Virus genome (UHGV): UHGV-0178165
Source: a virus
Strand: one strand, 5' to 3'
DNA: 18,159 bases
The stretch's first letter is position 1. Each line of letters opens with the position of its first letter. Positions 3,001-6,000 of this stretch are shown here, one piece after another. Made by a program: the position numbers.

Positions 3001-6000
3001 CCAGCCTCACAAAGAGCCTCAATATGGTTAATCACGGAGCGTTTGCTAATCTCGCACTGGTCAGCGATATGCTGATATGAAGGCCAGCATTCGCCATTGT
3101 CATTGGCGTTATCGGCAAGTTTAAGCAGAACCAGTTTTCTGAGCGGGTTTCCAACTTTGGCTCCCATTGCCTTCACCATCAGAATCATACTCATTTTTTC
3201 ACCTCCAATTGGTTGTGTTTGTTAATGCTTATTTAAGCATCAGGCGAGCAAACTTCGGCTGGTTACTTCCTGGCTCCAAATTCAAAACCCCAGTCTTTTC
3301 CAGTGCTAAAATGTGACCAATTACTGTCGATCTGCTAATATCGCACTGATAAGCGAGATCTTGATATGAAAACCAGCATTCGCCATTGTCATTGGCGTTA
3401 TCGGCAAGTTTAAGCAGAATCAGTTTTCTTCGCGGGTTCCCAACCTTAGTTCTCATTGCTTTCTCAATCAGAATCATACTCATTGTGTCTTCTCCTGTAA
3501 TTTGTGCTTTCTATTCATGACAGCCAATCATCTTTGCCAGACCGCGCTGGGTAAGCGTTGACAGGTTGATGAGTAAATCAGTTTCTGCGCGATCAATTTC
3601 TCGCTGTGTTGGCTTGCTGTAACTTGCTTGTGTCATTTGTTAATTCACCAATAGTGAATAGTTAGTTGAAAGGTATGCGTGGAAACGCATATAGCCTTAG
3701 TTGGTCAGATATCTTGGAACTCGCTTTTCAGCGACGTAGGACGAATGTCCGTTGTTACAAAGAGCAGTCCCGCTTATTAAGCGGCTTTGTGTTCCGGCGG
3801 GAACACGTCATCAAGACTTACATTTGCGCCTAACTTGTTCAGGTAAGCAACGAGAGCACGGCATGTTTTAAGATCTGGCATGCGACGACCACTTTCCCAA
3901 TGACCGACAGCCGACTGTGTGCATCCAACTGCCTTAGCAAGTATTGTTTGACTGATGCTCACTGACTTTCGATATTTCTTAAGGTTGTTCATATTTCCTT
4001 CCCAACATTGGTAACCACGCTATTATAGTACATCTAGTGCGTTTTTAATGCAAGCAAAAATACCACACTCCAAATCCTGGTGAACCAACCCCAAACCTCC
4101 TGAATCGCATTCTGACGCAATATTTACGCCCACACGTACATTTTAATGTCTGACAGTTGTTTATCTCTCTACAGCGCTTCCTATGGCGTTTAAACGCCAT
4201 TGACGTAACTAATGGTTGCCGAGACCGGCTTTCCGCATGCCTGCACACCAGAATATTTCCTCGAATGCCTTGTCGGTTTCTTCGTGACGGTCAGGAGTTT
4301 TTTCACACTCTGTTCGGACATGTTCGAACATAATGTTTTTAGGTTCATTGACTGGTTCAAAAGAGTGACTGGTTCTGGGTGCAGCTCCTGCACCACCCCC
4401 TAGTGAATCTCCTGCACCACCCTAGTGAATCTCCTGCACCACCCTGGTGAATCTCCTGCACCACCCTGGTGAATCTCCTGCACCACGGGCCAGCTTCTTG
4501 ACGGGCTACAGGGTTTAGGGATTTCACCACTTTTGGTGAAAACTTGGCGCCAACTTTCTTTCCCAAAATATAAATCAATAAAATACATAGAGTTATAAAA
4601 AACTAACCACATTTAGAGTGTTTGTGTTGACTTAATCAACTACGTCCCGTACTATTTAGTCATCAGCAGGAAGCTGGAAGCCAAACGGAACAGACTGGCA
4701 GGCTCTTTAAACAACGTCGAACACTCGACTACGTGGCTGAAAAGCCAGATCACCCAACCACATAAGCTGTGGGATGCAATGCCGAAGCAACCGTCTCAGG
4801 AGGGGCTTCGAGATTGCATCGCCAAAGTTTATTCGGGAGGAATCTATGTCCAGAAAAACAGAATTTAAAGGAACCGCAGCTTCTCGCCGTAGAGCTCGTC
4901 GTGCAAATCTGCAAAGTCAGGAGGCGATCAGCTCCGACAAGCTACACAGGCCAACCCCTTCACGAGTGGTCTTGCAATGCAAGCGCAAACCAGCAATGAG
5001 AGCAGAAGTGATAACTCTGACAACGTTGACCAGAAAATATGAAGGTTCAACTTGTCTTCCAAACGTAGCTCTTTACGCGGCAGGCTACCGGAAATCAAAA
5101 CAACTGACAGCGAGGTAAGTGATGAATCAGACATACATTCCATCATGCTTGAGAAATCTGCCAAAGCAGAAAGCAAAGCCCCGCAAGCAAGCCATAAAGG
5201 ACGCTAAGGCAGAGGTTATTGATCAAGCAATACAATTGCTCAGGGAGGAGTTAAGAAGTGGCAAGCTCGAAGGAATGATGATGCCCTATCAGCGCGGATA
5301 TCTTTCGGCGATTAGTAAGTTGGAAGTATTGAAGAGTGAATTATGAACTATCTGGAATTTCCGGATGGTTCATTGTTTTGGCAGCAAACCACTTGTTTGA
5401 GGACTGATACATGAGAGTAAAAACTATGGGCGTAAGCCCATTAAGTGGTCGTATTTTTCAAGGAACATTAAACACTGAAAAAGGAATGTGGGTAGGAAAG
5501 AAAGAAGATGTAACCGAACAGGCAGTTAAGGCAGTAGCTGAACACATGATGATAAAAGGCCAGAAATATGCATACGGGACGAAGGATGGCAAATGGCTGA
5601 TAATAAGCCATCAAGTGGTTGATAAATTACCAGAAGATTTTATTGCTGATTAAAATTATTTTGGCATAAATAACAGAATAAACACAGCACTGTGTATTCA
5701 TTCCAACGAGTGAATACACGGAGCAATGTCGCTCGTAACTAAACAGGAGCCGACTTGTTCTGATTGTTGGAAATCTTCTTTGCCCTCCAGTGTGAGGGCA
5801 ATTTTAGCACACCATGCAATATGCCATTGCAGGGTGGCCTGTTGCTGGCTGCCCTTCCGAATCTTTACTTGAACGAATCACCCGTAAATTACGTGACGGA
5901 TGGAAAAGAGTTGAGGTCTTATTATGCGCAATGAAATAGCCATCAATCACCAGATGCTTCGTGCTGCACAGAACAAAGCAGTAATAGCCAGATTTATTGG

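What the first reader, a model, noticed from the sequence alone, without database searches (positions are those of the whole stretch)
3721..4747. Matched nutL/nutR pair with GAAA-loop boxB hairpins and an N protein combining a novel arginine-rich motif with a P22-like C-terminus
Both nut candidates share boxA (GCTCTTT[A/G][A/T]AACAA) and a 5-bp-stem GAAA-loop boxB (UGGCU-GAAA-AGCCA; UCGCU-GAAA-AGCGA), unlike the lambda and P22 boxB loops as I recall them. N has a different ARM (TAASRRRARRANLQ) but a C-terminal region very like P22 gp24. This looks like co-variation of the RNA-binding motif with its boxB on a conserved NusA/RNAP-interacting scaffold.
Basis: partly seen in the sequence, partly recalled or inferred. 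Interest (0 to 1): 0.5.

Follow-up and report, generated by a model that had tools for sequence, protein, structure and literature searches.

The report
N antiterminator with tetraloop nut sites
This is an ordinary lambdoid-phage N/nut transcription-antitermination module, very common in E. coli prophages, but its RNA target hairpins carry a plain four-base GNRA loop instead of the five-base loops of lambda and P22, and that loop tracks the N protein's RNA-binding motif across many phages.

Summary
nutL (4702-4747, +) and nutR (3765-3721, -) each have an rrn-like boxA, a short spacer hairpin and a 5-bp boxB with a GAAA loop. N is at 4846-5118 (90 aa, Pfam N_peptide E=3e-32).

The N protein is not novel. 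It is 100% identical to N of VT2-Sakai and other Stx phages. nutL+N occurs in 759 of 5,426 complete E. coli genomes. Its arginine-rich motif (ARM), SRRRARRANLQSQE, is closest to lambda's TRRRERRAEKQAQW and lacks Trp18. Its C-terminus is P22/H-19B-like.

The window's nutR is nearly the 933W/HK97 nutR with one loop base removed (GACAA to GAAA). In 163 distinct nutR-to-N intervals:
- 106/106 with the RRRxRRAxLQ ARM have GAAA.
- 56/56 with the H-19B-type ARM have GACAA.

This holds with identical or near-identical cro genes next to nutR. The same ARM on a different 120-aa scaffold (Salmonella phage g341c type) also pairs with GAAA. A sub-class (RRREARKHLQ) pairs with GCAA/GUAA.

Verdict: a known system, carrying a natural GNRA-tetraloop boxB specificity class that I could not find described. 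The co-variation reading is supported. The "novel ARM" claim is not. Moderate interest.

The parts
4702..4747 (+). nutL: boxA (4702-4714, GCUCUUUAAACAA), spacer 'reducer' hairpin (4716-4729, GUCGA-ACAC-UCGAC), CUACG linker, boxB (4734-4747, UGGCU-GAAA-AGCCA)
   Evidence: Sequence. The pattern occurs twice in the window with 0 expected by chance. The isolated boxB folds at -6.5 kcal/mol, z -3.95. The site is conserved upstream of every N at 98% identity or more in IMG/VR loci where the upstream region is held. Both helices show covariation.
3721..3765 (-). nutR: boxA (3765-3752, GCUCUUUGUAACAA), spacer hairpin (3750-3739, GGAC-AUUC-GUCC), CUACG linker, boxB (3734-3721, UCGCU-GAAA-AGCGA)
   Evidence: Sequence and pattern search. 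The boxB is in the MFE fold with pair probabilities 0.88-0.98. It is near-identical to 933W/HK97 nutR except for the loop, GACAA versus GAAA. The loop follows the N class in 163 of 163 distinct intervals.
4846..5118 (+). N gene: 90-aa antiterminator. ARM at about residues 11-26 (AASRRRARRANLQSQE), lambda-like central region (HRPTPSRVVLQCKRKPAMR), P22/H-19B-like C-terminus (CLPNVALYAAGYRKSKQLTAR)
   Evidence: Pfam PF25694 N_peptide, E=3.4e-32, covering 1-90. 100% identical to N of VT2-Sakai-type phages. Alignments.
4627..4655 (+). pL-like promoter (TTGACT-17-TACTAT) driving nutL and N
   Evidence: Consensus scan. This is a consensus match only. Its position relative to nutL and N is as in lambda.
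3777..3992 (-). cro-like HTH gene (71 aa), whose transcript runs into nutR
   Evidence: Pfam HTH_3 E=2e-12, with a weak P22_Cro match. Relatives annotate the equivalent gene as cro.
4025..4053 (-). Putative pR (TTGCAT-17-TACTAT) upstream of cro
   Evidence: Read from the sequence. The promoter scan did not flag it because the -35 hexamer is weak. Inferred from position only.
4747..4845 (+). Long N-leader stem-loop between nutL and the N start codon. Its base pairs with the Shine-Dalgarno region.
   Evidence: MFE -43.4 kcal/mol, z -4.74, 0 of 200 shuffles as good, folded on 4747-4850. The analogy to the RNase III-processed lambda N leader is from my own knowledge, not tested.
5343..5373 (+). 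Terminator-like hairpin with a T-run downstream of the first post-N ORF. A candidate tL1-type target of N-modified polymerase.
   Evidence: Consensus scan. Function is inferred.

Best explanation
This is the early antitermination module of a lambdoid (P22-like) phage.

Proposed sequence of events. Transcripts from pL and pR carry nutL and nutR. [quoted passage not shown] The small spacer hairpin shortens the long spacer, like the H-19B 'reducer'. The central, lambda-like part of N contacts NusA. The P22/H-19B-like C-terminus contacts RNA polymerase. Polymerase then reads through downstream terminators.

What is particular here is the specificity class. boxB is a canonical GNRA tetraloop (GAAA) closed by a U-A pair, with no extruded fifth base. 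It is read by a lambda-like ARM (consensus A-x-RRR-x-RR-A-x-LQ) that lacks lambda's Trp18. The loop is what separates this class from the H-19B/P22 class: GACAA minus its looped-out C gives GAAA.

Shown here: the anatomy, the conservation, helix covariation and ARM/loop co-variation. Inferred: binding, Nus-factor dependence and read-through.
For: 1. Family and anatomy. Pfam N_peptide at E=3e-32. The order pL, nutL, N and cro, nutR matches lambdoid immunity regions.

2. One-base relation to the H-19B type. The window's nutR differs from 933W/HK97 nutR essentially by the boxB loop. The reducer hairpin GGACAUUCGUCC and the CUACG linker are identical.

3. Scan on the shared nutR backbone. Among loci with an N gene in reach, GAAA went with the window-type N in 30 and with a 933W-scaffold N carrying ARM GRRRERRAALQ in 3. 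GACAA went with 933W-type N in 26 of 26.

4. Distinct intervals. In 163 distinct nutR-to-N intervals falling into 20 immunity-region clusters, class A ARM had GAAA in 106/106, class B had GACAA in 56/56, and the single A2 interval had GCAA. The largest cluster holds both classes.

5. Same cro, different loop. One identical cro allele, and several alleles one residue apart, occur with GAAA or GACAA according to the N class 1-3.5 kb away.

6. nutL. All 38 distinct class-A N proteins (17 on the 90-aa scaffold, 21 on the 120/121-aa scaffold) have a GNRA-tetraloop nutL with stems UGGCU, CGGCU or AGGCU (my tally of the rows listed). The sub-class RRREAR[KQ]HLQ pairs with GGCC-GCAA/GUAA-GGCC.

7. Helix covariation. 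96.7% of cells paired versus 69.7% in shuffles; 7 of 10 pairs show double changes; 0 of 500 shuffles reach the observed score; sliding the register collapses pairing to 22-46%.

8. Isolated phages carry it. Loci whose contig lengths equal those of the VT2-Sakai and g341c records have these sites.

9. Literature. Lambda N needs the Arg 6-11 patch and the U-A closing pair, and Glu9 is inert (PMC12027372). All of these are compatible with this ARM and boxB. The H-19B N C-terminal domain (residues 101-127) binds RNA polymerase, and H-19B nutR has two hairpins (PMC3526286).
Against: - There is no experimental test of this N with these sites. Binding and specificity are inferred from co-variation.
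- Loci are not phylogenetically independent, and nutL is physically adjacent to N.
- The nutR tally counted only sites with the UCGCU/AGCGA stem.
- As naked RNA, nutL prefers a fold in which boxA pairs with the 3' half of boxB, by 2.1 kcal/mol; the boxB pair probability is about 0.04.
- One locus (L046) combines this N and a GAAA nutL with a genuine lambda cI-cro-nutR (GAAAA pentaloop). The specificity may therefore be loose.
- From memory (Legault et al. 1998, not held in the library): deleting the extruded base of lambda boxB preserved N binding but impaired the NusA-dependent complex. If that carries over, a tetraloop should be sub-optimal unless this N engages NusA differently.
Confidence: 0.85

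Rival explanations
1. Promiscuous N. This N recognises any GNRA-like fold, including tetraloops and the lambda-type pentaloop. The loop/ARM association would then reflect shared descent and block recombination rather than a distinct specificity.
For: The ARM is lambda-like. L046 pairs this N with a true lambda nutR. POCJ13-type phages mix GCAA (nutL) with GAAA (nutR).
Against: No mixing with GACAA was seen in 163 distinct intervals, even though both classes share immunity modules and identical or near-identical cro alleles next to nutR. The same ARM on a different scaffold again carries GAAA at both nut sites. L046 is a single case and may be a defective prophage.
Confidence: 0.12
2. Decayed sites. 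The GAAA loops are one-base deletion mutants of H-19B-type GACAA boxB in defective prophages, and are no longer used.
For: nutR differs from the 933W/HK97 nutR essentially by one loop base. The window itself has a disrupted lysogeny module, with no cI and a truncated cII.
Against: The same loop occurs at both nutL and nutR. It is conserved across more than 100 distinct contexts and 38 distinct N proteins. It occurs in records of isolated phages. The stems show compensatory changes while the loop stays GNRA.
Confidence: 0.02
3. Other function. The hairpins serve mainly as terminators, RNase III sites or binding sites for another protein, and the true N target lies elsewhere, for example in the spacer hairpin.
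For: Each nut region has two hairpins, and a very stable leader hairpin follows nutL.
Against: No U-run follows either boxB. The spacer-hairpin loops are not conserved (ACAC, CUC, AUUC, GUGA, GAAUAU, GGA...), whereas the boxB loop is invariant within each class. The terminator scan flags the minus strand of the nutL spacer hairpin but neither boxB.
Confidence: 0.01

Closest known systems
N of VT2-Sakai / Stx1-converting phage (AP005153) / YYZ-2008 / 2851 / 1717 / 2G7b, with their nut regions
   Same: The N protein is 100% identical. nutL and nutR have the same architecture and the same GAAA loops. In effect this is the same module.
   Different: In those records the nut sites are not annotated; only operators and promoters are. 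I found no paper describing their boxB. The window differs in lacking cI between cro and pL.
Lambda N / nutL, nutR
   Same: ARM core: A-x-[TS]-RRR-x-RRA-x-x-Q-x-Q. The central region aligns at 35% identity over N 11-61 versus lambda 3-60. The boxB has a 5-bp stem closed by U-A, and the loop starts GAA. Genome positions are the same.
   Different: The lambda loop is a pentaloop, GAAAA/GAAGA, with one base extruded (PMC12027372). Lambda has Trp18 where this N has Glu, and Lys14 where this N has Leu. The lambda spacer is short and has no hairpin. Lambda boxA is CGCUCUUA, whereas here it is rrn-like GCUCUUUA (PMC2724277). The C-terminus is unrelated.
H-19B / 933W / HK97 N and nut sites
   Same: The nut architecture ACAACG-[spacer hairpin]-CUACG-boxB is shared. 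nutR is almost base-for-base identical. The C-terminal CLPNVA[LI]YAAGYRKSKQLTAR is shared. H-19B nutR is reported to have two hairpins (PMC3526286).
   Different: The ARM is RSRRRERLKAKALANG and the boxB loop is GACAA. The protein is 127 aa with an extra central segment and is about 40% identical overall.
P22 gp24 (N) / boxB
   Same: The C-terminal roughly 24 residues (18/24 identical) and 41% identity overall. Both have a consensus-type boxA.
   Different: The P22 ARM is TRRHERRRKLAIERD. Its boxB-left is GCGCU-GACAA-AGCGC, with the C looped out and contacting the peptide (PMC12550061).
Phi21 N / boxB
   Same: The same kind of ARM-hairpin recognition system.
   Different: The phi21 boxB is a CUAACC hexaloop mimicking a GNRA fold (PMC12550061). 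It was not compared at sequence level here.

Membership tests
Lambdoid N / nut processive antitermination | [quoted passage not shown] | tested here: met
   Pfam PF25694 N_peptide, E=3.4e-32, 111 bits against a cut-off of 27.9, covering residues 1-90. ARM AASRRRARRANLQ.
Lambdoid N / nut processive antitermination | nutL between pL and N, and nutR just downstream of cro, on divergent transcripts | tested here: met
   pL-like promoter at 4627-4655, nutL at 4702-4747, N at 4846-5118. On the minus strand, cro at 3992-3777 and nutR at 3765-3721.
Lambdoid N / nut processive antitermination | nut made of boxA, a spacer and a boxB stem-loop | tested here: met
   boxA is GCUCUUUA-like at both sites; compare rrn UGCUCUUUA (PMC2724277). 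The boxB hairpins fold at -6.5 kcal/mol. The helices show covariation.
Lambdoid N / nut processive antitermination | The cognate ARM and boxB co-vary between phages (specificity classes) | tested here: met
   Class A with GAAA in 106/106, class B with GACAA in 56/56, and A2 with GCAA.
Lambdoid N / nut processive antitermination | N binds boxB RNA and, with NusA/B/E/G, makes RNA polymerase termination-resistant | not testable with these tools
   Needs reporter and binding assays. Inferred from homology and context only.
Lambda-type boxB specificity class | GNRNA pentaloop with the fourth base extruded, and Trp18 stacking on the loop | tested here: not met
   The loop has 4 nt (GAAA) at both sites. 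The position equivalent to Trp18 is Glu. The pentaloop requirement is from PMC12027372.
P22 / H-19B-type boxB specificity class | GACAA pentaloop with a looped-out C, read by an RR(H/R)ER(R/L)(R/K)K-type ARM | tested here: not met
   The loop lacks the C. The ARM is RRRARRANLQ. The P22 loop geometry is from PMC12550061.
H-19B-type nut architecture | [quoted passage not shown] | tested here: met
   GUCGA-ACAC-UCGAC in nutL and GGAC-AUUC-GUCC in nutR. The latter is identical to the one in 933W/HK97 nutR. 4 of 5 pairs show double compensatory changes. The name and role of the 'reducer' are from memory (Neely and Friedman 2000). That H-19B nutR has two hairpins is from PMC3526286.

The most novel reading that the evidence does not exclude
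N proteins with the A-x-RRR-x-RR-A-x-LQ motif define a distinct natural specificity class that reads a minimal, canonical GNRA tetraloop boxB with no extruded base. On this reading, a one-base insertion or deletion in the loop (GAAA, GACAA, GAAAA), matched by a swap of the ARM, is the natural switch between the three antitermination specificities. The extruded loop base thought to matter for the lambda N-NusA-boxB complex would then be dispensable in a very common group of E. coli and Salmonella phages, including the Sakai Stx2 phage.
Probability: 0.55. Interest if true: 0.5.

Novelty: new variant of a known kind. Interest (0 to 1): 0.38.

Why it matters
N/boxB is the textbook model for recognition of RNA by arginine-rich peptides and is widely used as a tethering tool. 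The solved complexes listed in a 2025 structural survey are pentaloops (lambda, P22) or a hexaloop (phi21) that mimic a GNRA fold (PMC12550061).

A natural class that uses the bare GNRA tetraloop would give three things:
- A minimal reference complex.
- A test of whether the extruded base is needed to assemble the Nus complex.
- A possible orthogonal peptide/hairpin pair.

It also concerns control of early gene expression in Sakai-type Shiga-toxin phages, because their N is identical.

Against this, the system as a whole is ordinary and the sequences have been in databases for more than 20 years.

Tried and rejected
- Rfam, with permissive E-values over 3400-5200, gave only chance-level hits (Trp_leader, CsrB, P26). 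No family covers nut sites.
- phmmer of N against PDB sequences found nothing, even at E of 10 or less.
- The genome-contig scan (one genome per species) returned only 4 loci. Two were contigs binned in a 'Segatella copri' metagenome-assembled genome (MAG). It gave little diversity.
- Nine literature searches found no description of a tetraloop boxB or of this N's nut sites. One searched for the literal boxB and ARM strings. One search was poorly chosen. The key older papers (Weisberg and Gottesman 1999; Goodson and Winkler 2018) are not held. An earlier description in a subscription journal therefore cannot be excluded.
- I considered boxB as an intrinsic terminator. I rejected this because no U-run follows it and the scan does not flag it.
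- I considered the annotated 114-aa N (start at 4774, as in AP005153). I rejected it in favour of the 90-aa form. That form has a GGGAGG Shine-Dalgarno before 4846, the Pfam profile starts at residue 1, and NCBI's PGAP annotation pipeline bp.
- The annotation 'similar to HK97 N' led me to expect an HK97-type N. HK97 N turned out to be the 127-aa H-19B type with GACAA boxB.
- I considered the alternative nutL fold as a conserved regulatory structure. I rejected it as probably incidental, because the g341c-type nutL lacks the boxA needed for it.
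Full report
**1. What is in the sequence**

The window carries a lambdoid immunity-flank arrangement. On the minus strand, a Cro-like HTH gene (3992-3777; Pfam HTH_3 2e-12) is followed 12 nt later by GCTCTTTGTAACAA-CGGACATTCGTCCTACG-TCGCTGAAAAGCGA (3765-3721). On the plus strand, a pL-like promoter (TTGACT-17-TACTAT, 4627-4655) is followed by GCTCTTTAAACAA-CGTCGAACACTCGACTACG-TGGCTGAAAAGCCA (4702-4747). After a 98-nt leader comes a 90-aa ORF (4846-5118) that matches Pfam N_peptide at E=3.4e-32.

The composite pattern boxA-N20-32-GCTGAAAAGC occurs exactly twice in the window and never in 200 shuffles. 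Each boxB hairpin alone folds at -6.5 kcal/mol with z about -4.

- Each spacer holds a second small hairpin: GTCGA-ACAC-TCGAC at 4716-4729 and GGAC-ATTC-GTCC at 3750-3739.
- In naked nutL RNA, an alternative pairing of boxA with the 3' half of boxB is 2.1 kcal/mol more stable than the two-hairpin form. nutR folds as expected, with boxB pair probabilities of 0.88-0.98.

**2. The protein is known, and its ARM is lambda-like**

tblastn shows that N is 100% identical to the annotated N of VT2-Sakai-type phages: Stx1-converting phage AP005153, YYZ-2008, 2851, 1717, PA16 and 2G7b. nutL+N is found at 80% coverage or more in 759 of 5,426 complete E. coli genomes, where NCBI's PGAP annotation pipeline names it 'transcriptional antitermination N peptide'.

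The alignments show a mosaic:
- The ARM AASRRRARRANLQSQE lines up without gaps with lambda AQTRRRERRAEKQAQW. It has Glu in place of Trp18 and Leu in place of Lys14.
- Residues 11-61 align to lambda N 3-60 at 35% identity, E=4e-5. That stretch includes the segment that in lambda (residues 34-47) binds NusA AR1 (PMC2724277).
- The last 24 residues are P22/H-19B-like (18/24 identical to P22 gp24). That region corresponds to the RNA-polymerase-binding C-terminal domain of H-19B N (PMC3526286).

So 'novel ARM' is wrong and 'P22-like C-terminus' is right.

**3. Relation to known nut sites**

The window's nutR is almost base-for-base the nutR of 933W and HK97. It shares the spacer hairpin GGACAUUCGUCC, the CUACG linker and the UCGCU/AGCGA stem. 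The difference is the loop: GACAA in those phages and GAAA here. HK97 and 933W N are the 127-aa H-19B type, with ARM RSRRRERLKAKALANG.

All these sites share the architecture ACAACG-[hairpin]-CUACG-[boxB]. This matches the H-19B-type nut with a dyad symmetry in the spacer. H-19B nutR is reported to have two hairpins (PMC3526286); the 'reducer' name and model are from my memory of Neely and Friedman 2000.

On 27 distinct tetraloop-class sites, both helices covary:
- 96.7% of cells are paired, against 69.7% in shuffles.
- 7 of 10 pairs show double changes.
- 0 of 500 shuffles reach the observed covariation score.
- Sliding the pairing register drops pairing to 22-46%.

Caveat: I chose these sites by eye from a regex list. 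The regex did not require complementarity.

**4. Co-variation test**

I collected loci from IMG/VR in three ways:
- with the window's N protein;
- with the shared nutR backbone carrying a free 4-5-nt loop;
- with two divergent N proteins found along the way.

Results:

- (a) Backbone scan. On the shared nutR backbone, GAAA goes with the window-type N in 30 loci. It also goes, in 3 loci, with a 933W-scaffold N whose ARM is GRRRERRAALQ and whose nutL is CGGCU-GAAA-AGCCG. GACAA goes with 933W-type N in 26 of 26 loci.
- (b) nutL across N proteins. Among 70 distinct N proteins, all 38 with RRR[AE][RH]RAxLQ have a GNRA-tetraloop nutL with stems UGGCU, CGGCU or AGGCU. Of these, 17 are on the 90-aa scaffold and 21 on a 120/121-aa scaffold (my tally of the rows listed). 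One locus in the 120-aa group has the contig length of the Salmonella phage g341c record. H-19B-type and P22-type ARMs have GACAA. The exception is a small GTSRARRRERLKAKA group, where no such hairpin was flagged. A GCUC-CGUCAAC-GAGC element found in six loci is probably its boxB, but I did not map it to those loci.
- (c) Distinct intervals. In 163 distinct nutR-to-N intervals falling into 20 immunity clusters, the association is perfect: 106/106, 56/56 and 1/1. The largest cluster contains both classes.
- (d) Same cro, different loop. One identical cro allele, and several alleles one residue apart, sit directly next to a GAAA or a GACAA nutR according to the N class on the far side of the immunity region.
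- (e) A sub-class. ARMs of the type RRREAR[KQ]HLQ pair with GGCC-GCAA/GUAA-GGCC at nutL and UCGCU-GCAA-AGCGA at nutR.

Every loop in this group is GNRA: GAAA, GCAA or GUAA.

The loci are not phylogenetically independent, and nutL is physically linked to N. But the nutR result, across shared cro alleles, is hard to explain without selection for a match.

The one exception is L046. Its cI-cro-nutR is 97.8% identical to lambda's, with the GAAAA loop, and it is combined with this N and a GAAA nutL. Either the lambda-like ARM tolerates the lambda pentaloop or that prophage is defective.

**5. Mechanism**

The best-supported reading is standard N antitermination:
- N binds boxB on the nascent pL and pR transcripts.
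- The rrn-like boxA (GCUCUUUA; compare rrn UGCUCUUUA, PMC2724277) recruits NusB/NusE.
- The spacer hairpin draws boxA and boxB together.
- The central part of N engages NusA and the C-terminus engages RNA polymerase.
- Polymerase reads through downstream terminators. A terminator-like hairpin lies at 5343-5373. H-19B has a Rho-dependent tR1 just after nutR (PMC3526286).

The specific feature is recognition of a canonical tetraloop. Removing the looped-out C from the P22/H-19B GACAA (PMC12550061), or the extruded fourth base from the lambda GNRNA loop (PMC12027372), both give GAAA. This boxB is therefore the common core of the two classical folds.

The features lambda N needs most are all present or compatible: the Arg 6-11 patch and the U-A closing pair are there, and the change at Glu9 falls on an inert position (PMC12027372).

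Binding, specificity and Nus dependence are inferred, not shown.

**6. Novelty**

The module, the protein sequence and the kind of system are known. What I could not find described is the tetraloop boxB class.
- The nut sites are not annotated in AP005153.
- No Rfam family covers them.
- A 2025 structural survey lists only penta- and hexaloop N-boxB complexes (PMC12550061).
- Literal searches for the boxB and ARM strings found nothing relevant.

Much of the 1985-2010 antitermination literature is not in the library, so prior description cannot be excluded. I rate it a new variant of a known kind, of moderate interest.

**7. Context of this particular copy**

Compared with a normal relative (the prophage of E. 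coli HCP6S3_I2: toprim, rep, DUF2740, cII, cro, cI, N), the window differs as follows:
- It lacks cI. Positions 4061-4554 replace it and include a 96.7%-identical copy (4225-4465) of the iteron-bearing part of the replication gene (2692-2933).
- cII is cut to 41 aa.
- The N-terminal part of the replication gene is duplicated.

No integrase domain was found among the ten ORFs I scanned. Nine lie between 6058 and 10510 in the left operon and one is at 13848-14504. The nut/N module itself is intact.

Noticed in passing
window 3993-4640, with 2692-2933: There is no cI repressor gene between cro and pL. Compared with a normal relative (L351), cI is replaced by about 494 bp (4061-4554). This includes a 96.7%-identical duplicate (4225-4465) of the iteron-bearing part of the replication gene (2692-2933), followed by several 22-bp iteron repeats up to about 4507. 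Positions 4061-4224 match nothing in the phage collection.
   Followed up: partly
window 3229-3636 (-): cII is truncated to 41 aa (3636-3511; Pfam Phage_CII positions 1-37 of 91). It is followed by an 84-aa duplicate of the HTH_36 N-terminus of the replication protein (3483-3229), directly upstream of the full 256-aa rep gene (3194-2424). With no cI and no integrase domain among the ten ORFs scanned (nine of them at 6058-10510), this looks like a non-lysogenic or rearranged derivative of a P22-like temperate phage.
   Followed up: partly
window 4747-4850 (+): The leader between nutL and the N start codon folds into one long hairpin (-43.4 kcal/mol, z -4.7). Its base pairs with the Shine-Dalgarno region of N. 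This recalls the RNase III-processed, translation-controlling leader of lambda N; that comparison is from memory.
   Followed up: partly
window 4700-4750 (+): In naked nutL RNA, boxA (GGCUCUUUA) can pair with the boxB loop and 3' arm (UGAAAAGCC) around the spacer hairpin. This fold is 2.1 kcal/mol better than the two-hairpin form. It is not possible in the g341c-type nutL, which lacks this boxA, so it is probably incidental.
   Followed up: partly
L046 (IMGVR_UViG_2531839234_000006), about 850-4150: A natural hybrid. Its cI-cro-nutR is 97.8% identical to lambda's, with boxB GCCCU-GAAAA-AGGGC, and it is combined with the window-type N and a GAAA nutL. This may indicate cross-recognition of the lambda pentaloop by this lambda-like ARM, or a defective prophage.
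   Followed up: partly
L211-L221 (for example L211 about 3750-4300): A sub-class of N proteins with ARM RRREAR[KQ]HLQ pairs with GCAA or GUAA tetraloops closed by C-G (GGCC-GCAA-GGCC) at nutL, and with UCGCU-GCAA-AGCGA at nutR. This suggests that the second loop base and the closing pair are also read.
   Followed up: partly
loci with N starting MTRRTQFKGTSRARRRERLKAKALANG (6 loci among L272-L350): These 127-aa N proteins have a nutL in which no GNRA or GACAA hairpin was flagged downstream of the usual spacer hairpin. A GCUC-CGUCAAC-GAGC element, resembling the P22 boxB-right style, occurs in six loci and is probably theirs. I did not map it to these loci.
   Followed up: no
L083 and L086 (JAJXBQ010000280.1 and JAJXBQ010000254.1): Two short contigs binned in a 'Segatella copri' metagenome-assembled genome (MAG) carry enterobacterial lambdoid N/nut modules. 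One has an N 98% identical to the window's. This is most likely mis-binned E. coli phage DNA.
   Followed up: no
window 4774-5118 versus 4846-5118: Some database records annotate this N as 114 aa, starting at the ATG at 4774 inside the leader hairpin. The strong Shine-Dalgarno before 4846, the Pfam profile alignment and the PGAP annotation all favour the 90-aa form.
   Followed up: yes
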